A DNA stretch of 64,000 nucleotides from a virus: positions 25,997 to 89,996 of IMG/VR virus record IMGVR_UViG_3300020395_000002; one strand, given 5' to 3'. The notes under the pieces are model-generated. The model was not told the origin of the DNA. It saw nothing but the letters and a program-made list of their open reading frames with translations, and ran no database searches. A program made the position numbers and the translations under genes. Positions within the stretch are counted from its first letter, which is position 1. Every line of letters starts with the position of its first letter. Shown piece after piece: positions 37,926-57,429 of the stretch.

Positions 37926-38186
37926 ATGGGAGCACATTCAAATCCATCATTACACACTCAGAATAGTACTGTTGACCTAACAGACCACCGTGATTTGGTG
38001 CTCAGTAGGGATGAGAGAGGATACCTTAAAGAAATGTTACACACCTACAGACATATGTTTGCAGAGGTGATGACAGCACAGAAATTCAATAGCTGTACTG
38101 ATACAACAAAGAGACAGCAGTTCCACGAGTTGCAAAAGAATCTAGGAAGTGGTATACTTGAGAAGATCCGTAATGTTGAACGTTGA
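37926..38186 (+). CDS. Hypothetical protein
   Basis: ORF track; AGGA RBS; overlaps the MTase start. Confidence 0.6.
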   Translation: MGAHSNPSLHTQNSTVDLTDHRDLVLSRDERGYLKEMLHTYRHMFAEVMTAQKFNSCTDTTKRQQFHELQKNLGSGILEKIRNVER

Positions 38187-39130
38187 GAGACACAGTATTA
38201 TTTGGTGATTGTAGAGATACACTCAGCACACTCAAAGCACAAATAACAACTGGTATTGCTGAGAGACCACGTATGTGTGTCACTTCTCCACCTTACTATG
38301 GTCTAAGAGACTATGGTGGTGAAGAGAATCAAATTGGTATGGAGCAGTCACCTGAAGAATTCGTACAAGAATTAGTAGATGTATTCAGTAAGGTACGTGA
38401 TGTACTGACTGATGATGGTACACTATGGTTAAACATAGGTGATAGCTACTATAACTATCGTAGTGATGGTAATTACCCACAGCAATCAGTATCTAAGACT
38501 AGACAGGATTTACCACAGAGCACACCAGTAAGAGGTAATAAACTCAAAGGATATAAGAGTAAAGATCTAATTGGTATACCTTGGATGCTTGCATTTGCAT
38601 TACGTGCTGATGGATGGTATCTAAGGCAGGATATTATATGGCATAAACCAAATCCAATGCCTGAGTCAGTCAAGGATAGGTGTACCAAGTCACACGAGTA
38701 CATATTCCTATTAAGTAAGAGTAAACAGTATTTCTATGACAATGACGCAATTAAAGAACCAGTTAAGCAAGATTGGGGTACTAGAGATCGTACTAAAGGG
38801 AAGTATCATAATCCTGGCACTGGCCTATCCCCTCACACTGGTTTAACTAAATCATATACAAAGAAGAATAAACGCTCTGTCTGGTCAGTAAATAAGAAAC
38901 CATACAAGGGTGCTCACTTCGCTACGTATCCACCTGAGTTGATCCGTCCTTGTATTCTAGCAGGTTCAGAGCGTGGTGACATTGTACTTGATCCATTTCT
39001 AGGAAGTGGCACAACAGCGATGGTAGCCAAGGATCTAGGTCGTTCGTACATAGGGTGTGAGTTGAACGAGGACTATGCCAGTTTACAAAGTGCACGTATT
39101 TCCACCATTCCCAACAAACTACCCTTATAA
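38183..39130 (+). CDS. DNA methyltransferase, N4-cytosine/N6-adenine, beta class
   Basis: Motif IV TSPPY precedes motif I VLDPFLGSGTT; also WHKPNPMP and HFATYP. Confidence 0.92.
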   Translation: MRDTVLFGDCRDTLSTLKAQITTGIAERPRMCVTSPPYYGLRDYGGEENQIGMEQSPEEFVQELVDVFSKVRDVLTDDGTLWLNIGDSYYNYRSDGNYPQQSVSKTRQDLPQSTPVRGNKLKGYKSKDLIGIPWMLAFALRADGWYLRQDIIWHKPNPMPESVKDRCTKSHEYIFLLSKSKQYFYDNDAIKEPVKQDWGTRDRTKGKYHNPGTGLSPHTGLTKSYTKKNKRSVWSVNKKPYKGAHFATYPPELIRPCILAGSERGDIVLDPFLGSGTTAMVAKDLGRSYIGCELNEDYASLQSARISTIPNKLPL

Positions 39131-39156: not shown

Positions 39157-39423
39157 TTGACCACATCCTCAACTCGTCGTCGTACACGCAAGGCACCTGC
39201 TAAGAAGGCAGCACCAGCAGCATCTAAAGCAGTGTTAAATACTACACCAGTAGTAGAGGCACCTAAAGTGACCGAGACACCTAAAGTAAAACCACCAGCA
39301 GACATCACAAAATTACGTGGGTTTGACTTCGTGGTATTACCTCTGATATTCCTTGAGGCATTTATAGTGAACATTGTACAGAATGCTGGATTCAAAGTTC
39401 CAGACCGAGTAGCAGTTCAGTAA
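39157..39423 (+). CDS. Small protein with a basic Lys/Ala/Arg-rich N-terminus and a hydrophobic C-terminal segment
   Basis: RRRTRKAPAKKAAPAASK; FVVLPLIFLEAFIVNIV; follows a cassette promoter. Confidence 0.6.
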   Translation: MTTSSTRRRTRKAPAKKAAPAASKAVLNTTPVVEAPKVTETPKVKPPADITKLRGFDFVVLPLIFLEAFIVNIVQNAGFKVPDRVAVQ

Positions 39424-39738: not shown

Positions 39739-40365
39739 ATGAACTTTGAACGCTACGACATCTTTCCAACACCAGTATTTGAATTAGATGTGCCATCTGA
39801 CTTATATGCTCAGTTGTTATCCCTCTGCAATGTTGTAGACTGGGATACTGCTGAGACATATGCAGGTGGTTCTTCTAGTTGCAATGTACTAAACTTTCCA
39901 CAACAAGATGGTATACTATCATACTCTGACTTCACACCATTTCGTAAGTGGGCAGAGGACAGGCTAGAAGACATTAGTAATGGTATACCAGGTAATTACA
40001 GCAGTAATGTTAAGATAAATGCTGCTTGGATTAACAGATATAAGAAGGGTGACTATAATAGAGCACACAACCATCCGTGGTCATTGTACAGTGGTGTTGT
40101 GTTCCTGACAGGGAACTCAGGTAATATGGTATTCATAAAACCTAACCCATACAATGAAGAGGTCTTAAAGATCAGTAATGTGCACGATACTGTACCATTT
40201 CAGTCACAAGGTGGTAAAATGGTCGTGTTTCCCTCGACTCTCAAGCACTTTGTGACTGAGAATCAGAATGAAACAATTCGTTATACTCTAGCATTTAATG
40301 CTATGCCTGACAAGGTGGATGATGGACACACTGTCCAGTTTAAAAACTGTCACACAGATGGTTGA
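39739..40365 (+). CDS. 2OG-Fe(II) oxygenase (TIGR02466-like)
   Basis: IFPTPV, AWIN, HNHPWSLYSGVVF, VFPSTLKHFV, RYTLAFN. Confidence 0.88.
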   Translation: MNFERYDIFPTPVFELDVPSDLYAQLLSLCNVVDWDTAETYAGGSSSCNVLNFPQQDGILSYSDFTPFRKWAEDRLEDISNGIPGNYSSNVKINAAWINRYKKGDYNRAHNHPWSLYSGVVFLTGNSGNMVFIKPNPYNEEVLKISNVHDTVPFQSQGGKMVVFPSTLKHFVTENQNETIRYTLAFNAMPDKVDDGHTVQFKNCHTDG

Positions 40366-51456: not shown

Positions 51457-51684
51457 TGGATGGAGAGTGTAGTCAATGAAACTGTAATTCGCTCAGACAA
51501 TAAGATTCTCGAAGATAAGATCGATAAGTTACAGAAGGAAGTGGATGCACTCAAAGCAAGACCTATTGCAAAGATTATGTACCGCCCACCAGGACATACG
51601 AAGCACTTACAACTTGCTGAGTACTTAGATGACCTTGAAAATAGGTTAAATACAATAGAGCTAAGAATAGAACTTGACGTGTAA
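51457..51684 (+). CDS. Coiled-coil hypothetical protein
   Basis: ORF track 51415..51684; start uncertain; MYRPPG....L..YLD motif. Confidence 0.55.
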   Translation, partial: WMESVVNETVIRSDNKILEDKIDKLQKEVDALKARPIAKIMYRPPGHTKHLQLAEYLDDLENRLNTIELRIELDV

Positions 51685-54196
51685 TTTTCAAGCAGGTTTA
51701 TCCATTACTAGTCCATATGGTAGTAACTTTACCTATGATGCGACTGGACAGGATCCTGATGACAATTTGTTGGGAGGTAATGATGATGAGAATTATTTTG
51801 AATATGTCTTTACGTTAAACACTGTCACTTGTGGTGATGATGGTAGTTGTGATACGATGACACCATCCAGTATAAGGGTTACTGGTACCGAGCAATATTT
51901 TACGTTATGGATATGCGATAGCACGACTGAACGTATATCAGTGCGAAACAGCAGTGGGCAGTTTAAGGTAGGTGAGACGATCACAGCACCTAATGGTGCT
52001 ACTGGCACTGTAAAGGAATGGCATAACTTCCGAGAGGTCAATGGTTTAGATATTATAGAGTTAGACAATCCCTCTGGTAACTTTCCGAGTGAGACTGTAA
52101 CAGGGTCTGAATCGGGCGTGACCGCCGACTGTGTTGCAGGATGGTTCGATAGTCCTGGTAGTACGTTAGTAGGAGGGGTAGCAGTAACTACAGAACCTGT
52201 GATAGCTACGTTATCTGGGTTCTATGCCTACCCGAAGAAGGTATCATATACAAAGTACCTCAGTCCGAAGTGCGATACTCTTGTGGACGTGTGCGGACCG
52301 ATTGCCGAGACGCACGACGAGACAAAGGGATGGATGGAGATGTTTGAAGATGGTCCTGATACCTGTGACTTCAAACAAATTAATAAACAGAATAGAGAAC
52401 TACTACAGGATGAATGGGGAAAGACCACTACTGCTTGTAGTAGAGAGAGCACGTGGCCGATTAATGCTGATACAGGTATATACGTTGCAGTACCATTACT
52501 AGGAGAAGATGAGAATGGTAAACCCTTAGGAATGCAAGAGTATATTCATCCTGGTTTACAGGAGACTATGCAGAAGAGTCTAGACAATTATAATAAGCAA
52601 ATGTTGAGTATGTGTGATAGTGGGGGTGTCACAGATATGCAGCAGTGGGTACAACTAGAACAATCACTTACAGATCCAGTAAACCTAGAGTTCCAAGCAG
52701 ATTATATCATCGATGGTGCCCAACAAACCTATGTTAACCAGATGGATGCTAACCTGAACAATACTTCAGGTAATAGTGCTGAGTTCTGGAGGGAGGTAAG
52801 GACATATAACTGCGAATTTAATGATCTAGTTGATGGGGCTATAGCAGCAGAGGAGCACGCTATGGCAATAGAGGCGAATCAACAGACGATAGTACCTCAA
52901 AACTGGTATACAGAGAAGATGCAAGAGTGGTCTACCTCTTCTTTTAGGGGAGTACCCTCTGCTGGACCTAGAATTAAGTGGAATATCTTTGAATATGTCC
53001 CTCATAGTAGAGGAAGACAGGAATTTCCTTACACTATAGTGGGTGGATGGTACTGTTCTGACCTATTAGGTACTAATGTAGGTACTACAGATACCTTTAC
53101 ATACAATATTAACCTTGAAATCAACTCAAATTGGTCTACTTATAGGGATTTACTAGCAGAAGCAGTGGAAAGACAAGGTAATCCTTATGATGATGTCCTC
53201 ATTGCACAGATAAAAGCGTTTGTTGACCCCTCTCATAGTACTATTACACTGTTCGATTACGATATTGCGAACTTCCCTGAGTATGGATACCTAGAATTGA
53301 ACAACTATGAGTATGCTGGACAAGGAATAAGTGCCATTACAGCACTAGATCCTGGTTTAGGGTATATGAATACACCTACTGTTACCTTTAGTGACCCTGA
53401 TTTACCTGGTGGTACAGTAGCTACAGCAGAGGCAGTGGTGACAGGAGGACGTATATACGGTTATAAGCTCCTTAATGGAGGTAGTGGTTACATACAAAGC
53501 CCAACGATTAGTATCTCTGCACCCAATCCTGACCTCAGTGCGGTAGCTGATGTGGTTACAGGGAGCAGTTATATGATCAATATCGATATGGAAGCGTACC
53601 CATTACTCTTTATGGGAGTAAGAGTGCAAGATGATCTAGGTCAAATGGACATAAGGGGTGTTAAAAGGAGTATACCTGGTGTAGAATTCCAGTGTACTGC
53701 GGATGGTACGAACGTACTAGTAGTAAATACGGTGTATATTGAGTCGAATCAGGAAGCAAATGACATTGACCTAGACGATATACAAGCTGGTATGATCATT
53801 GAAGGGTTTGATGACCCTACAATTTACGTACAACAGGTTACTTTAGCGGGTGCACTCATCCAAGTAAGTCAAAATATAGCTGCTGGTGTGTATCGAGTGA
53901 ACACAAAGACCGCAATTCAGATGGATGCTTCCTCAAATACGACACTTACTGGTGTAGATTTCACTTTTACCGCCCCTCAAGTGTCAAATGCGACCGCATA
54001 TACCCGTTTATTCCTCCAATCGGAGACTGGTAGCTCCTTTACATACGAAAATTCACGTGAAATTGCTCATTTTGACGGAAAAACGCAAAATGAAGACGGA
54101 AGTGTCACTCTAAATAACCTATTAAGGACTAGAAAGCAGACGGAAGGCAAACAACACCTCCGCAATGACCATACTTTCTTACATATTTACATATAA
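51674..54196 (+). CDS. Virion/baseplate-associated structural protein (840 aa)
   Basis: G(L/S)GY...PT(V/I) repeats shared with other structural genes here; FKVGETIT..GATGTV motif; located before PAAR, gp25 and gp6. Confidence 0.65.
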   Translation: MTCNFQAGLSITSPYGSNFTYDATGQDPDDNLLGGNDDENYFEYVFTLNTVTCGDDGSCDTMTPSSIRVTGTEQYFTLWICDSTTERISVRNSSGQFKVGETITAPNGATGTVKEWHNFREVNGLDIIELDNPSGNFPSETVTGSESGVTADCVAGWFDSPGSTLVGGVAVTTEPVIATLSGFYAYPKKVSYTKYLSPKCDTLVDVCGPIAETHDETKGWMEMFEDGPDTCDFKQINKQNRELLQDEWGKTTTACSRESTWPINADTGIYVAVPLLGEDENGKPLGMQEYIHPGLQETMQKSLDNYNKQMLSMCDSGGVTDMQQWVQLEQSLTDPVNLEFQADYIIDGAQQTYVNQMDANLNNTSGNSAEFWREVRTYNCEFNDLVDGAIAAEEHAMAIEANQQTIVPQNWYTEKMQEWSTSSFRGVPSAGPRIKWNIFEYVPHSRGRQEFPYTIVGGWYCSDLLGTNVGTTDTFTYNINLEINSNWSTYRDLLAEAVERQGNPYDDVLIAQIKAFVDPSHSTITLFDYDIANFPEYGYLELNNYEYAGQGISAITALDPGLGYMNTPTVTFSDPDLPGGTVATAEAVVTGGRIYGYKLLNGGSGYIQSPTISISAPNPDLSAVADVVTGSSYMINIDMEAYPLLFMGVRVQDDLGQMDIRGVKRSIPGVEFQCTADGTNVLVVNTVYIESNQEANDIDLDDIQAGMIIEGFDDPTIYVQQVTLAGALIQVSQNIAAGVYRVNTKTAIQMDASSNTTLTGVDFTFTAPQVSNATAYTRLFLQSETGSSFTYENSREIAHFDGKTQNEDGSVTLNNLLRTRKQTEGKQHLRNDHTFLHIYI

Positions 54197-54744
54197 TGTC
54201 AGCTTTTGGACTAACAACAGGCGTTTGTACGGGTCACGGGTGCTGGCCACCCCAAGGATACGCCCCTTCACCCGTTACAACTGTCAAAGTAACTAAAATT
54301 GCACCTCTTGTAAGCACACAAATAAGAAATGTGCACTGCAAACCGTGTGGAAAGAACCCTGCGTGCCATCCAGGCACTGTTTCAGTGGGTTGTGCTACAG
54401 TTGATTGCGGAGTAGGTGCTCCTTCTGTACCACTTCCTGTCGCTAAGACAGGTAATGCGGAGACAGATGCGGTATTAGCGAAGATTGGACCTAAGATATG
54501 TCCTACAGGATTCCCTCCTGCAAAAATTGGAACAAGTATCAGTTGCGGATCAAAGGTTGCGGTAGGTGCCCCTAATGTGCTATTATGTACGGGAGGCAGT
54601 TCGATCTCTAAACTTGCTGCTCTCGCTGCTGCAATGGCAGCTCTGGGTTCGTTCCCTATACTATCAATTCCTTCTATTGGAGGAGGTGGTGGTTCAGGGT
54701 CACAATCTCCAGGTGATAACTCTGTAACCGATTGCTCTAACTAA
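54196..54744 (+). CDS. PAAR-like spike tip protein (T4 gp5.4-like)
   Basis: CTGHGCWPP, HC..C....CHP, PPAKIG..ISCGS.VA.G..NV. Confidence 0.75.
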   Translation: MSAFGLTTGVCTGHGCWPPQGYAPSPVTTVKVTKIAPLVSTQIRNVHCKPCGKNPACHPGTVSVGCATVDCGVGAPSVPLPVAKTGNAETDAVLAKIGPKICPTGFPPAKIGTSISCGSKVAVGAPNVLLCTGGSSISKLAALAAAMAALGSFPILSIPSIGGGGGSGSQSPGDNSVTDCSN

Positions 54745-54881
54745 TGGCACTTTACAACAACTCGACTAAAAAAGAAGCAACTCCCAAAAAAACTCGTCAA
54801 GGTATGGGTGCACATTCTAAGTACTCTGCTACTTCTAGGAATGGTGCTAAGAAAAGATACCGTGGACAAGGAAGAAAGTGA
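54744..54881 (+). CDS. Tiny Lys/Arg-rich basic protein (45 aa)
   Basis: Hand-translated MALYNNSTKKEATPKKTRQGMGAHSKYSATSRNGAKKRYRGQGRK; TAATG and GTGA overlaps on the two sides. Confidence 0.75.
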   Translation: MALYNNSTKKEATPKKTRQGMGAHSKYSATSRNGAKKRYRGQGRK

Positions 54882-55177
54882 CTTATCAAGCATTACCTAA
54901 GTGTTTGCACGTAAAAGATAGCCCTGTCGCTGGACAGGGTTTATTTGCCACTGAGGATATACCTGATGATGTTTATCTGGGTATATCACACGTAGTTGTA
55001 GACAGCACCATTATGAGAACCCCTTTAGGTGGGTTTGTGAACCATAATGAGGAACCTAACTGCACAAAGGATCTAGAGATGGAAGAGTGGGGACAAATAT
55101 ATCATATGAGAACTCTTAGACCTATTAAGAAGGGTGAAGAGTTGTTTTTAAAGTATACATTCTATAAGGTAAGTTAA
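54878..55177 (+). CDS. Minimal SET-domain protein-lysine methyltransferase
   Basis: S.VAGQGLFATEDIP, GGFVNHNEEPNC, TLRPIKKGEELFLKY match the SET signature motifs GxG, NHSxxPN and ELxxDY. Confidence 0.85.
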   Translation: MTYQALPKCLHVKDSPVAGQGLFATEDIPDDVYLGISHVVVDSTIMRTPLGGFVNHNEEPNCTKDLEMEEWGQIYHMRTLRPIKKGEELFLKYTFYKVS

Positions 55178-55183
55178 AAGTCG

Positions 55184-55190
55184 CTAAATA
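55184..55190 (+). promoter_or_regulatory. Late promoter-like motif
   Basis: CTAAATA upstream of gp25. Confidence 0.6.
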
Positions 55191-55215
55191 AAGTCACGAC
55201 CTCGTGTATTAGTGT

Positions 55216-55614
55216 ATGCCGAAGGCTATTGACTTTAAAGACGTATCTATTTCTTTAGGTATCAACCCTGTCACTGAAGACGTTCTTACTACCACAGACG
55301 AAATTGCGGTAAAAAGAGCGTTATATAATATTGTGATGACAAGAAAGGGGGAGAGGTTCTTTAAGCCAGATCTCGGTAGTAATGTTGCTGATTTGTTATT
55401 TGAACCTCTTGACTCTGCTACTGCGTCTCTTCTAAAGGAGGAGATCGAGTATGTGATCACAAAGTACGAGCCTCGTATTAATCTTCTTCGTTGCGACATA
55501 TCTGCCAATTACGATAGTAATGGCTTTGATTGTGCAATATCATTTGAGATCATCGGAATTCAATCCGATGTCCAAGTACAGGATGTAGAATTCTTCCTAG
55601 AAAGAACCAGATAA
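55216..55614 (+). CDS. gp25: Baseplate wedge subunit gp25
   Basis: FKDVSISL..NPVT.D, AVKRALYNIVMTRKGERFF.PDLGS..LLFE, YEPRI. Confidence 0.92.
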   Translation: MPKAIDFKDVSISLGINPVTEDVLTTTDEIAVKRALYNIVMTRKGERFFKPDLGSNVADLLFEPLDSATASLLKEEIEYVITKYEPRINLLRCDISANYDSNGFDCAISFEIIGIQSDVQVQDVEFFLERTR

Positions 55615-57429
55615 ATGTCTTACGTTCAAGTTGCCAATTTAGACTTTACAGAGATTAAATCATCTCTGAAAGAGTATCTTCGATCTAATAGTGATTTCAC
55701 TGATTACGACTTTGAGGGTTCAACTCTTAGTACCCTGTTAGACGTACTCGCTTATAATACGTACTACACGGCGTTTAACGCCAATATGGTAGTAAATGAG
55801 GCATTCCTTGAATCAGCGACCCTCAGGGACAATGTGGTGTCTCTGGCTAAGCAAATAGGTTATCTTCCCAAGTCTTCAGTATCTCCCACAGCAGTTTTAA
55901 ACATCGATGCTGATTTTAGTACGCAGAATAATATTCCAGCAATCGTTAAGATGCCTAGAGGGTCACAATACCTTACTAGGATCAATGGAACTACATATTC
56001 ATTCATTACAGCCAAAGATTATGTGGTTGGATTGAATAGTCAGTCCGTAGCAAAATTTGAAGGTGTTGAAATTAAGGAGGGAAACTATGTTATTGAAACA
56101 TTTACATTTAATGCTGCCATTCCTCAAAGGTTTATCCTACAAAACGCAGGAATCGACACCAGCACTCTCAAGGTTACTGTTAGACCAACATTTAATAGTA
56201 CTAGTGTGGTTGAGTATCGTCTAGCTGATAACATTATTGGGTTTGATGGTACATCACAGATCTTTTTCTTACAGGAAGGTGAAGATGAGCGTTATGAGAT
56301 CATCTTTGGAGATGGTACCCTAGGTAAGAAACTAGATACTAACAATTATATCGAAGTTTCATATATCACCACTAATGGTGCTGCTGCAAACGCTGCTAGA
56401 GTCTTCTCTTACGGTGCTGTATTGGAGGATCAGGTAGGTGGGAATGATTATGCACCTACGATTACTTTAACAACTACTACAGCAGCGTCTGGAGGTGAAT
56501 CCCTTGAAACGGTTGACTCAATTAAGCGTAATGCTCCGAAATTTTTCAACACACAAAATAGAGCAGTTACCGCAGATGACTACGAATCCATTATCCGTCG
56601 TATTTTCCCTGCGATTGCTGACATCGTTTGTTATGGTGGAGAAGATGCTAGCCCTCCAGAATACGGAAAGGTTAAAATCGTCGTAAAGCCTAGCTACGCT
56701 ACTAAATTAAGTGCGTACACTAAGAATTTGATTGCTACAGACCTTAAAAAGTATGCTGTGGTATCAGTTACCCCTGAAATCGTTGATCCTTCTATTACAT
56801 ACGTTGAATTAAACTCAAACATCTTCTATAACAAGTCTAAAACGACTTTGAATGAGTCTGAGTTGAAAGCAGCAGTAATTAATTCGTTAACTACCTACAG
56901 AGGTACCTCAGATCTTGAGAAATTCAATGGTAGGTTTAAATATAGTCGTATCGTTGGTATTATTGATGCTACCGATGAATCGATTACATCTAATGAAACA
57001 GAAATCAAACTAAGGAAGGATTTCATTCCTGTATTGAACACTGTTACTCAATATGAGATTTGTTATCAGAACGTAGTTAAGAGTGGATGCTCAAATCCTT
57101 CTGTACAGAGCAGTGGCTTTGTAGTAGCTGGGTATCCAAGTGATATCGTCTACTTAGCAGACGATCAAAAAGGTAATGTTTACCTATACAAGATCGATCC
57201 TACAACACAAAGTCGATTTGTCCTCAATGCACAGCAAGGAACCATCGATTATAGTAAAGGAGAGGTAATGTTGAATCGGTTAAATATAATCAAAGGAACT
57301 TATGATGATGGAAGGATTGAACTTCGTGTCAGTCCAACAAACAAAGATATATACGCATATCGGGAAGCATATCTAAGTCTTGATTTGCAATCTAGCGTAT
57401 TCCTGATCACCCAAGAAGCACTTATCTGA
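55615..57429 (+). CDS. gp6: Baseplate wedge subunit gp6
   Basis: NLDF..IK.SLK.YLR.NSDFTDYDFEGS.LS.LLDVLAYNTYY.AFNANM; FGDG; QNRAVTADDY; PPEYGKV. Confidence 0.93.
   Translation: MSYVQVANLDFTEIKSSLKEYLRSNSDFTDYDFEGSTLSTLLDVLAYNTYYTAFNANMVVNEAFLESATLRDNVVSLAKQIGYLPKSSVSPTAVLNIDADFSTQNNIPAIVKMPRGSQYLTRINGTTYSFITAKDYVVGLNSQSVAKFEGVEIKEGNYVIETFTFNAAIPQRFILQNAGIDTSTLKVTVRPTFNSTSVVEYRLADNIIGFDGTSQIFFLQEGEDERYEIIFGDGTLGKKLDTNNYIEVSYITTNGAAANAARVFSYGAVLEDQVGGNDYAPTITLTTTTAASGGESLETVDSIKRNAPKFFNTQNRAVTADDYESIIRRIFPAIADIVCYGGEDASPPEYGKVKIVVKPSYATKLSAYTKNLIATDLKKYAVVSVTPEIVDPSITYVELNSNIFYNKSKTTLNESELKAAVINSLTTYRGTSDLEKFNGRFKYSRIVGIIDATDESITSNETEIKLRKDFIPVLNTVTQYEICYQNVVKSGCSNPSVQSSGFVVAGYPSDIVYLADDQKGNVYLYKIDPTTQSRFVLNAQQGTIDYSKGEVMLNRLNIIKGTYDDGRIELRVSPTNKDIYAYREAYLSLDLQSSVFLITQEALI

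What the first reader, a model, noticed from the sequence alone, without database searches (positions are those of the whole stretch)
54744..55177. SET-domain methyltransferase coupled to a tiny histone-tail-like basic peptide inside the baseplate operon
Seen: a 45-aa ORF missed by the track (...STKKEATPKKTRQGMGAHSKYSATSRNGAKKRYRGQGRK; 8 Lys, 5 Arg, 1 acidic residue). It overlaps (GTGA) the start of a 99-aa protein that is essentially a bare SET core, and the pair sits between PAAR and gp25. Established: SET domains methylate Lys in basic unstructured tails, and chlorella virus vSET is a similarly minimal enzyme. Inference: a writer-substrate pair in which methylation tunes a DNA-condensing or virion peptide. 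A second candidate substrate is the H1-like ORF 39157..39423.
Basis: partly seen in the sequence, partly recalled or inferred. Interest (0 to 1): 0.7.

Follow-up and report, generated by a model that had tools for sequence, protein, structure and literature searches.

The report
Mobile SET gene beside conserved peptide
A tiny lysine-methyltransferase gene lies next to a small basic protein gene in a marine cyanophage, but comparison with related phages shows they are neighbours because of a gene-insertion hot spot, not a demonstrated enzyme-substrate pair.

Summary
A 45-aa basic ORF (54744..54881) overlaps by GTGA a 99-aa bare SET domain (54878..55177), between a PAAR-like gene and gp25.

Both are real genes:
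- The peptide belongs to phrog_516. It occurs in 442 cyanomyovirus records and is under coding constraint.
- The SET keeps every catalytic motif and folds like vSET and MLL.

The writer-substrate reading is not supported by comparison:
- The peptide is near-universal, whereas the SET is sporadic (5 isolate phages).
- The peptide-to-gp25 slot carries unrelated cargo in other phages, and a published hot spot covers it (PMC3037559).
- Of 80 SET-bearing viral contigs, 70 have the SET in this slot. It is always 31-84 nt before gp25, but 0 to about 970 nt from the peptide.
- Eight contigs and P-SSM7 carry the SET elsewhere.
- SET genes at least 88% identical sit beside peptide genes only 59-80% identical.
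- A sister SET clade in 71 non-cyanophage contigs has no peptide nearby.

New lead: the peptide's C-terminal half weakly resembles the H-NS/StpA DNA-binding loop.

This scan noted the same pair before on other DNA. One earlier follow-up reached the same verdict.

The parts
51674..54196 (+). 840-aa late structural-type protein. Its stop overlaps the start of the PAAR-like gene.
   Evidence: ORF. Weak PHROG matches to virion and tail-fibre repeat domains at residues 543-631. No Pfam hit above cut-off.
54110..54116 (+). CTAAATA motif, read as late-promoter-like, 86 nt before the PAAR-like gene
   Evidence: 6 matches in the window, all on the + strand, against 14 expected by chance on both strands. 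Five of the 6 lie within about 90 nt upstream of an ORF start (my reading). Reading it as a cyanophage late promoter rests on recall of the T4 late-promoter consensus and was not tested.
54196..54744 (+). 182-aa PAAR-like protein, joined to the peptide gene by a TAATG overlap
   Evidence: phrog_281 'PAAR motif' at E 1.4e-9. No Pfam hit.
54744..54881 (+). 45-aa basic protein, a near-core gene of marine cyanomyoviruses (phrog_516; 'T4-GC 394' in the P-SSM4 and P-SSM7 records). Function unknown. It carries a C-terminal GQGR motif.
   Evidence: Weak StpA/H-NS similarity. AlphaFold2 gives pLDDT 58 and no structure.
54878..55177 (+). 99-aa minimal SET-domain protein, a putative protein lysine methyltransferase. 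GTG start, with a purine-rich ribosome-binding-like stretch inside the peptide's last codons.
   Evidence: Pfam SET E 4.1e-11. phrog_28741 E 6.5e-52. Invariant GQG, NH, PNC and EL..Y motifs. AlphaFold2 pLDDT 88.7. Foldseek hits: 4rz0, MLL1, and vSET 3kma at TM 0.70.
55184..55190 (+). CTAAATA motif in the 38-nt gap between the SET and gp25, read as late-promoter-like
   Evidence: The promoter reading is inferred.
55216..55614 (+). gp25 baseplate wedge subunit, the right-hand border of the cargo slot
   Evidence: PF04965 E 1.9e-14. phrog_261 E 3.1e-46.
55615..57429 (+). gp6 baseplate wedge subunit
   Evidence: PF21379 and phrog_219 E 4.5e-200. The best isolate match is 51% identical (S-PM2).

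Best explanation
The locus holds two unrelated genes that share a gene-insertion hot spot.

(1) The 45-aa basic protein is a near-core gene of marine T4-like cyanophages. It marks the left edge of a variable slot that ends at gp25.

(2) The 99-aa protein is a catalytically intact, minimal SET-domain protein lysine methyltransferase. It is an independently mobile accessory gene. It is exchanged between divergent cyanomyoviruses as a cassette whose left joint lies at the stop codon of the peptide gene and whose right joint lies just before the gp25 promoter region.

The GTGA overlap arises because the peptide's conserved last codons supply a ribosome-binding-like stretch and a start/stop overlap for whichever gene lands there. 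In this phage the SET is probably expressed late, together with the PAAR-like gene and the peptide (inferred from motifs).

Its substrate is unknown. I think a conserved host protein, or another broadly shared target, is more likely than the neighbouring peptide. The reasons are that the same SET family works from early-gene and metabolic islands in other cyanophages, and that it occurs in phages of other hosts that lack the peptide.

Shown here: gene reality, SET motifs and fold, distribution, slot variability, and transfer of the SET without the peptide. Inferred: enzyme activity, timing of expression, and class of substrate.
For: - Peptide distribution: 442 phage records, all Synechococcus, Prochlorococcus, Cyanophage or Marine virus. 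For comparison, 374 Synechococcus-phage and 61 'Cyanophage' records carry gp6.
- SET distribution: only 8 records, which are 5 phages.
- Slot cargo in isolates: none in P-SSM7; two small ORFs in Syn9; a 2OG-Fe(II) oxygenase plus two ORFs in S-CAM4; a ferredoxin plus one ORF in S-CAM9; a 'hemagglutinin', denV and one ORF in P-SSM4; an endonuclease plus two ORFs in ACG-2014f.
- Generic overlap: in Syn9 and P-SSM4 the next gene overlaps the peptide stop by 4 nt, as the SET does here.
- Position in IMG/VR: 216 SET loci were confirmed and the best 80 examined. Of these, 70 of 80 have the peptide upstream and gp25 downstream. The SET-to-gp25 gap is always 31-84 nt. The peptide-to-SET gap is at most 10 nt in 30 loci, 11-300 nt in 22 and over 300 nt in 18. 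The intervening genes include 2OG-Fe(II) oxygenases.
- Other contexts: 8 of 80 loci, and P-SSM7, where the SET lies between nrdB and talC.
- Horizontal transfer without the peptide: 26 locus pairs have SET nucleotide identity of at least 88% but gp25 identity of at most 65%. Their peptide-core identity is 59-80%, mean 69.6%, against a background of 68.1%.
- No SET-specific signature: the conserved peptide residues are the same in SET-less phages.
- Sister clade: 71 loci related to the SET of Pelagibacter phage Kolga. None of the 71 has a peptide-profile hit, against 70 of 80 in the positive control.
- The SET is probably active: the GQG, NH, PNC and EL..Y93 columns are invariant in 22 sequences, and the fold matches SET enzymes.
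Against: - The SET sits in this one slot in 70 of 80 examined contigs, across backgrounds whose gp25 is only 32-45% identical to the window's. It directly abuts the peptide in 30 of those 70, and also in P-RSM6 and AG-345-P14, where the SET is only 55-66% identical to the window's. A recurrent adjacency like this could reflect selection as well as recombination mechanics.
- Every cyanomyovirus that carries the SET also carries the peptide somewhere, so methylation in trans cannot be excluded by co-occurrence.
- Only the best 80 of 216 loci, with flanks of 3-4 kb, were examined. The pairs are not independent, because several loci are near-identical.
- There are no biochemical data. The proposal of a host substrate is inference only.
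Confidence: 0.6

Rival explanations
1. Writer-substrate pair. The SET methylates one or more lysines of the basic peptide, in cis-encoded or trans fashion, and so tunes the peptide's binding to nucleic acid or to the virion.
For: The two genes overlap here. They abut in 30 of 70 slot loci, in P-RSM6 and in AG-345-P14. The peptide has three invariant lysines and AlphaFold2 predicts no structure for it alone. One contig from an RNA library spans the whole peptide gene and the first half of the SET (run X15, record 2). DNA carry-over in that library is not excluded.
Against: The peptide is conserved with the same lysines in phages without a SET. In 40 of 70 slot loci other sequence or genes separate the two. 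The SET lies elsewhere in P-SSM7 and in 8 of 80 contigs. The SET transfers without the peptide allele. The sister SET clade has no peptide nearby. Unrelated cargo genes overlap the peptide stop in the same way.
Confidence: 0.15
2. Virion-linked SET. The enzyme is made late with the baseplate genes. It either methylates virion proteins such as baseplate or tail parts, or is carried in the particle and delivered to the next host.
For: The SET lies 31-84 nt before gp25 in all 70 slot loci. Late-promoter-like CTAAATA motifs stand before the PAAR-like gene and before gp25. In Rhodoferax phage P26218 a SET-like stretch forms the C-terminal part of a 291-aa protein annotated as similar to a tail fibre protein, inside the tail module (33% identity over about 80 residues). 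phrog_34170 matches the window's SET at E 2e-7 over positions 194-275 of its 296-position profile.
Against: In P-SSM7 the gene lies between nrdB and talC. In 8 of 80 contigs it lies in small-ORF islands with DNA methyltransferase or oxygenase genes. In Kolga-type phages it follows a large protein annotated 'AAA protein' and appears in several other contexts. The P26218 protein has no Pfam SET hit at E 0.01 or better. No virion proteomics was available.
Confidence: 0.15
3. The SET domain is not an enzyme here. It would be a degenerate, structural or binding module.
For: It has no pre-SET, SET-I or post-SET regions and ends six residues after the motif tyrosine. Activity was not tested.
Against: All motif columns are invariant across 22 sequences of 65-87% identity. 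The model is confident and superposes on active minimal SET enzymes, including the 119-aa vSET.
Confidence: 0.05

Closest known systems
vSET (A612L) of Paramecium bursaria chlorella virus 1, a 119-aa H3K27 methyltransferase
   Same: It is a virus-encoded bare SET core without pre- or post-SET domains. It was detected by sequence (1n3j, E 0.013) and by fold (3kma, TM 0.70 normalised by query and 0.66 by target, rmsd 3.2).
   Different: The phage protein is shorter, at 97-100 aa across the family, and only 23% identical in the structural alignment. Its hosts are bacteria without histones, so the substrate must differ. That vSET acts as a dimer on host chromatin is recalled and was not tested here.
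Minimal SET proteins and the MLL/KMT2 and SETD7 SET domains (for example P. falciparum PFL0690c, 4rz0; MLL1; MLL3)
   Same: These are the best fold match (4rz0, TM 0.75) and the best sequence match (MLL3 SET, E 8.8e-5, with the NH..PNC and GEEL..Y motifs aligned).
   Different: Those enzymes are eukaryotic, carry accessory regions or partner proteins, and act on histone or other defined targets. Nothing of that kind is encoded here.
H-NS and StpA of Escherichia coli: the linker and the DNA-binding loop of the C-terminal domain
   Same: Peptide residues 24-44 align with H-NS 94-114 and StpA 88-114. The KY, NG, K, aromatic and GQGR positions coincide at identical spacing (hhalign E about 5e-4, probability 30-31%). 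NCBIfam reports StpA at E 0.023 and H-NS at E 0.21 as the only matches. StpA is matched by 15 of 25 family members. Shuffles reach the real score in 3 of 5000 and 1 of 5000 trials.
   Different: The peptide has no oligomerisation domain and none of the segment that follows the GQGR loop in H-NS. No Pfam H-NS hit was found for any of 25 members. AlphaFold2 predicts no hairpin. Divergent family members keep the C-terminal basic-YRGQG end but lose the KYS part. This is a resemblance, not membership. That the QGR loop of H-NS enters the DNA minor groove is recalled.
Hyperplastic regions (hot spots) of T4-like cyanophage genomes
   Same: [quoted passage not shown] 2010 list as a hot spot (PMC3037559, passage seen). 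Cargo differs from phage to phage.
   Different: The passages I saw do not mention the SET gene, the peptide or the exact joint at the peptide's stop codon. The paper's supplementary tables could not be opened.

Membership tests
SET-domain protein lysine methyltransferases (Pfam PF00856) | Profile match above the curated cut-off | tested here: met
   43.7 bits against a cut-off of 22.4, E 4.1e-11. Only profile positions 49-104 are aligned.
SET-domain protein lysine methyltransferases (Pfam PF00856) | N-terminal GxG cofactor-binding motif | tested here: met
   G19, Q20 and G21 are invariant in 22 sequences. The motif definition is recalled.
SET-domain protein lysine methyltransferases (Pfam PF00856) | NHxxxPN motif and ELxxxY motif with the catalytic tyrosine | tested here: met
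   N55, H56, N61, C62, E88, L89 and Y93 are invariant and P60 is nearly so. They align with the same motifs of the MLL3 SET.
SET-domain protein lysine methyltransferases (Pfam PF00856) | SET beta-fold | tested here: met
   AlphaFold2 pLDDT 88.7. Foldseek finds 226 PDB matches at E 0.001 or better. All 50 listed are SET-domain proteins or complexes that contain one, with TM 0.63-0.75 normalised by the query. The pseudoknot itself was not inspected.
SET-domain protein lysine methyltransferases (Pfam PF00856) | SAM-dependent methyl transfer to a protein lysine | not testable with these tools
   Needs a recombinant enzyme assay.
Dedicated enzyme-substrate gene pair (SET plus peptide) | The two genes co-occur: one is not found without the other | tested here: not met
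   The peptide is in 442 records and the SET in 8. The sister SET clade shows 0 of 71 loci with the peptide.
Dedicated enzyme-substrate gene pair (SET plus peptide) | Adjacency is kept wherever both genes occur | tested here: not met
   They abut in 30 of 70 slot loci and are separated in 40. In P-SSM7 they lie about 113 kb apart. In 8 of 80 loci neither the peptide nor gp25 is in the flank.
Dedicated enzyme-substrate gene pair (SET plus peptide) | The two genes are inherited or transferred together | tested here: not met
   In 26 pairs with SET identity of at least 88% and gp25 identity of at most 65%, the peptide core is 59-80% identical, mean 69.6% against a background of 68.1%.
Dedicated enzyme-substrate gene pair (SET plus peptide) | The peptide is methylated by the SET | not testable with these tools
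   Needs mass spectrometry or a labelled-SAM assay. No tool here folds two chains together.
H-NS / StpA family | N-terminal coiled-coil oligomerisation domain | tested here: not met
   The protein has 45 aa. Family members are 42-50 aa, and longer forms are read-through or over-extended calls.
H-NS / StpA family | Complete C-terminal DNA-binding domain recognised by family profiles | tested here: not met
   The NCBIfam match scores 14.9 bits against a cut-off of 202. No Pfam H-NS hit in 25 members. Only H-NS 94-114 aligns.
H-NS / StpA family | GQGR-type loop motif after an aromatic residue | tested here: met
   Y39, G41, Q42 and G43 are invariant and R40 nearly so. They align to the corresponding H-NS and StpA stretch.

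The most novel reading that the evidence does not exclude
The near-universal cyanomyovirus peptide would be a minimal H-NS/AT-hook-like minor-groove DNA binder: half of an H-NS DNA-binding domain, ending exactly at the GQGR loop. In the lineages that have acquired the SET cassette, its invariant lysines would be methylated, giving a phage-encoded 'chromatin mark' on a phage nucleoid protein in a bacterial system.
Probability: 0.07. Interest if true: 0.8.

Novelty: new member of a known kind. Interest (0 to 1): 0.35.

Why it matters
Protein lysine methylation by bacteriophages is almost unstudied. My searches of the paper library found no paper on a cyanophage or phage SET enzyme.

This roughly 99-aa SET is shorter than the 119-aa vSET chain in the PDB. 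It is widespread in ocean viruses: 216 cyanophage-type loci and 71 pelagiphage-type loci in IMG/VR. The window's stretch is held by at least 14 marine DNA runs. Finding its substrate would show what abundant marine phages methylate in Prochlorococcus, Synechococcus and SAR11-type hosts.

For the finding itself the result is sobering. Adjacency and a translational overlap in a hot spot are not evidence of functional coupling.

The peptide is worth attention on its own. It is a 45-aa gene present in nearly all marine cyanomyoviruses and has no assigned function.

Tried and rejected
- A megablast of 3 kb around the locus against isolate phages found nothing. The phage has no close cultured relative; the best gp6 identity is 51%.
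- Peptide against PDB sequences: only a chance-level match (CidB, E 0.97).
- Peptide in the ESM Atlas: only unnamed look-alike clusters and no structure.
- Peptide profile against the whole E. coli K-12 chromosome in six frames: the first look found no candidates, so no genome-wide rank for H-NS or StpA could be obtained.
- AlphaFold2 of the peptide: pLDDT 58 and no secondary structure, so no fold comparison was attempted.
- Fused or longer forms. The 125-147-aa 'SET' proteins are N-terminal over-extensions in the SET frame across the peptide gene. The 90-115-aa 'peptide' proteins are read-throughs or upstream extensions. None is a real fusion.
- A P-SSM7-type context (nrdB, talC and neighbours) was looked for in the 10 contigs without the slot arrangement and not found. 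These have other contexts.
- Literature. Searches for 'cyanophage' with 'SET domain', 'SET domain' with 'bacteriophage' and 'lysine methyltransferase', 'SET domain' with 'phage' and 'Prochlorococcus', 'cyanophage' with 'H-NS', and 'Syn9' with 'gp96' gave nothing relevant (listings seen). For PMC2938197 I read passages only; it concerns cyanophage dioxygenase arrays, not SET. Supplementary tables, such as the T4-GC lists and per-gene expression or virion proteomics of Syn9, P-SSM4 and P-HM2, were closed and may bear on when the peptide is expressed and whether it is in the virion.
- RNA runs. Six RNA runs hold only 0.10-0.15 of the sampled words. Four were laid. They are contigs at 90-99% likeness from RNA libraries in which DNA carry-over is possible. 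They show presence across the peptide-SET and SET-gp25 junctions but no transcript ends, strand or level. Stretches without cover mean nothing.
- The sigma-70-type promoter scan was at chance level, 14 found against 12.7 expected.
- The weak NCBIfam line for the SET (AnkI/LegAS4 model, E 0.0092, 14.8 bits against a cut-off of 550) only reflects the shared SET motif and was not followed.
Full report
**What is there.** The window is part of an 89,996-base uncultured virus record, estimated 47% complete. It has no close cultured relative: megablast finds nothing, and its gp6 is at most 51% identical to isolates.
- An ATG ORF at 54744..54881 encodes 45 aa with 8 K, 5 R and 1 E.
- Its TGA stop overlaps the GTG start of a 99-aa ORF at 54878..55177.
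- Upstream, a 182-aa PAAR-like ORF (phrog_281, E 1.4e-9) ends in TAATG on the peptide's start. It is itself overlapped by the stop of an 840-aa ORF.
- Downstream, after 38 nt, come gp25 and gp6.
- The motif CTAAATA occurs 6 times in the window, always on the + strand. One copy lies 86 nt before the PAAR-like gene and one lies in the SET-gp25 gap. I read these as late promoters from recall of the T4 late-promoter consensus. That is inference.

**Both ORFs are real genes.**

The peptide:
- It matches phrog_516 (E 2.5e-20).
- tblastn finds it in 442 phage records, all cyanophages or marine viruses.
- The word-indexed protein search finds 566 clusters of 24-79 aa.
- The exhaustive profile search of 1.84 billion representatives finds 176 proteins at E 0.001 or better. 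Of the best 150 listed, 149 are 34-115 aa. One is a 623-aa repeat protein that matches only 13 profile positions, which I take for chance.
- An alignment of 25 members shows about 34 residues conserved almost position by position. Invariant residues include P14, K15, T17, Q19, G20, K26, S31, N33, A35, K37, Y39, G41, Q42 and G43.
- Across 40 distinct nucleotide versions, variability at the third codon position is 0.407, against 0.163 and 0.106 at positions 1 and 2. Synonymous codon differences outnumber nonsynonymous ones 9859 to 4958.
- It is annotated as a hypothetical protein, 'T4-GC 394', in P-SSM4 and P-SSM7.

The 99-aa protein:
- It passes the Pfam SET cut-off and matches phrog_28741.
- It has 270 database clusters. 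The best 120 are listed and are mostly 94-111 aa.
- The GQG, NH, PNC and EL..Y columns are invariant.
- It gives a confident AlphaFold2 model (pLDDT 88.7).
- The best Foldseek matches are all SET-domain proteins or complexes that contain one, among them the 114-aa Plasmodium protein 4rz0, MLL1 and vSET. HMMER against PDB sequences agrees.

**The pair hypothesis against comparative data.** The two genes have very different distributions. The peptide is near-universal in marine cyanomyoviruses: 350 Synechococcus-phage records carry it, against 374 that carry gp6. The SET is found in only 8 isolate records, which represent 5 phages.

The interval between the peptide gene and gp25 is a cargo slot:
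- P-SSM7: empty.
- Syn9: two small ORFs.
- S-CAM4: a 2OG-Fe(II) oxygenase and two ORFs.
- S-CAM9: a ferredoxin and one ORF.
- P-SSM4: a 'hemagglutinin', denV and one ORF.
- ACG-2014f: an endonuclease and two ORFs.

In Syn9 and P-SSM4 the first cargo gene overlaps the peptide's stop by 4 nt, exactly as the SET does here. The overlap is therefore a property of the slot, not of the SET. Sullivan et al. [quoted passage not shown]

**Where the SET sits in uncultured phages.** IMG/VR holds 216 confirmed loci, of which the best 80 were fetched.
- In 70 of 80 loci the peptide lies upstream and gp25 downstream of the SET. This holds in backgrounds whose gp25 is 32-100% and whose gp6 is 33-100% identical to the window's, while the SET stays 75-99% identical.
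- In all 70, the SET ends 31-84 nt before the aligned start of gp25.
- The distance from the peptide to the SET varies: at most 10 nt in 30 loci, 11-300 nt in 22 and over 300 nt in 18.
- The intervening ORFs include two kinds of 2OG-Fe(II) oxygenase (Pfam PF13640), a recurrent His-rich 49-aa ORF and others.
- Eight loci show neither the peptide nor gp25 in the flank. Four of them were inspected by ORF listing. L018 and L041 are small-ORF islands followed by an SPPY-type DNA methyltransferase. L058 and L059 are islands with other enzymes.
- One locus starts at the SET itself. One has no peptide within the 826 nt available upstream.
- In P-SSM7 the SET (74% identical) lies between nrdB and talC, about 113 kb from the peptide, which sits in its usual place directly before gp25.
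- P-RSM6 and the single-cell virus AG-345-P14 have the same abutting arrangement as the window.

**The SET moves without the peptide.** Among 2346 pairs of 69 slot loci, SET nucleotide identity reaches 90% where gp25 identity is 40-55%, and 95.5% where gp25 identity is 55-65%. In the 26 pairs with SET identity of at least 88% and gp25 identity of at most 65%, the conserved core of the peptide gene is only 59-80% identical. The mean is 69.6%, no different from the 68.1% of all pairs with divergent gp25. Some of these pairs, for example L047 and L055, have the SET directly abutting the peptide in both members. The left recombination joint therefore lies at the peptide's stop codon. The pairs are not independent, because several loci are near-identical, but the pattern is the opposite of co-transfer. 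Peptides of SET-less phages keep the same conserved residues as those of SET-carrying ones.

**Outside cyanophages.**
- Pelagibacter phage Kolga carries a 102-aa homologue, 45% identical. It lies after a large protein annotated 'AAA protein', with no basic small ORF nearby.
- IMG/VR holds 71 loci related to the Kolga SET. The window's SET detects 70 of the 71. None has a peptide-profile hit or a gp25, gp6 or PAAR match within 3 kb, whereas the same profile finds the peptide in 70 of 80 cyanophage loci.
- Their contexts differ from one another. Some follow that large protein, some lie among oxygenase-like genes, and others lie among further phage genes (the functional labels are my reading of ORF N-termini and were not tested).
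- In Rhodoferax phage P26218 a weak SET-like stretch forms the C-terminal part of a 291-aa protein in the tail module. Pfam does not confirm it.

**What the peptide might be.** AlphaFold2 predicts no structure for it alone (pLDDT 58). It matches nothing in the PDB by sequence and no Pfam family. The only library matches are to StpA (E 0.023) and H-NS (E 0.21) of NCBIfam. StpA is matched by 15 of 25 family members and H-NS by 3 of 25. The members are related, so these are not independent hits. Profile comparison with the E. coli proteins aligns peptide residues 24-44 with H-NS 94-114, and residues 16-44 with StpA 88-114. It shows 48% identity, with the invariant peptide residues K26, N33, K37, Y39, G41, Q42 and G43 facing K, N, K, W, G, Q and G (E about 5e-4, probability 30-31%). 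Shuffled H-NS and StpA reach the real score in 3 of 5000 and 1 of 5000 trials. From recall, this stretch is the hairpin and GQGR loop with which H-NS contacts the DNA minor groove. The peptide ends exactly at that loop and lacks everything else of H-NS. Divergent members keep only the basic-YRGQG end. I treat this as a lead. I give about 30% to DNA binding of that kind, and about 60% to nucleic-acid binding of some kind.

**Expression and occurrence.** The stretch is held nearly complete by at least 14 marine DNA runs. Four of them may be the source of this DNA. Contigs from RNA libraries cover 54703-55038 (the end of the PAAR-like gene, the whole peptide gene and half of the SET), 54939-55201 and 55108-55277. 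This is compatible with transcription. It does not prove it, and it says nothing about strand or timing.

**The second candidate substrate.** The ORF 39157..39423 (TTG start, 88 aa) has no PHROG family. It is found in only 8 viral contigs and in P-RSM6, and in P-RSM6 only residues 28-88, the non-basic part, match. It cannot be the general substrate of a SET family with hundreds of loci.

**Verdict.** The SET is a new, very small member of a known enzyme kind and is an independently mobile accessory gene. The peptide is a conserved cyanomyovirus gene of unknown function. Their adjacency and overlap are explained by the architecture of a known hot spot. A writer-substrate relation is not excluded, and I give it about 15%. 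The same pair was noted by this scan on at least seven other genomes, and one earlier follow-up reached the same conclusion. I had formed my reading before seeing those notes, and I tested it independently.

Noticed in passing
window 54744..54881 (peptide residues 24-44): The C-terminal half of the peptide aligns with the linker, hairpin and GQGR loop of E. coli H-NS and StpA at identical spacing. The peptide ends exactly at that loop.
   Followed up: partly
window 11490, 17919, 32677, 47221, 54110, 55184: CTAAATA occurs 6 times, all on the + strand, against about 14 expected on both strands. Five of the 6 lie within about 90 nt upstream of an ORF start. It looks like a late-promoter motif.
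   Followed up: no
L021:3807-3956, L026:964-1113, L080:394-543, L035:3774-3956: A recurrent 49-60-aa His-rich small ORF with a conserved C-terminal half sits between the peptide and the SET in several contigs, sometimes together with a 2OG-Fe(II) oxygenase.
   Followed up: partly
L058:1590-1799, L059:2794-3003, L018:3263-3505, L041:1397-1651: In contigs where the SET lies outside the baseplate slot, a conserved 69-84-aa ORF stands a short way upstream. In L058 and L059 its end overlaps the SET start. It has no Pfam family.
   Followed up: no
L018:4402-4689 and L041:3198-3977; window 38183..39130: In two of the off-slot contigs the SET is followed by an SPPY-type DNA methyltransferase whose N-terminus resembles the window's own methyltransferase at 38183..39130 (phrog_67, E 5e-69).
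   Followed up: no
L093:2416-3291 (Rhodoferax phage P26218, P26218_30): A 291-aa protein annotated as similar to a tail fibre protein carries a weak SET-like stretch at its C-terminus, inside the tail module. phrog_34170 has the same layout. Pfam does not confirm a SET there.
   Followed up: partly
window 39157..39423: An 88-aa ORF with a basic Ala/Lys/Pro-rich N-terminus and a hydrophobic C-terminus. It is conserved in only 8 viral contigs and P-RSM6, where only the C-terminal part matches. A 157-aa antisense ORF overlaps it.
   Followed up: partly
window 54196..54744: The PAAR-like protein has a long C-terminal extension with an Ala/Leu-rich hydrophobic stretch and a Gly/Ser run. It has no Pfam PAAR hit, only phrog_281.
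   Followed up: no
window 39739..40365: A 2OG-Fe(II) oxygenase (phrog_81, E 4e-35) lies in the small-ORF island. It is the same enzyme class that appears as cargo in the peptide-gp25 slot of other phages.
   Followed up: no
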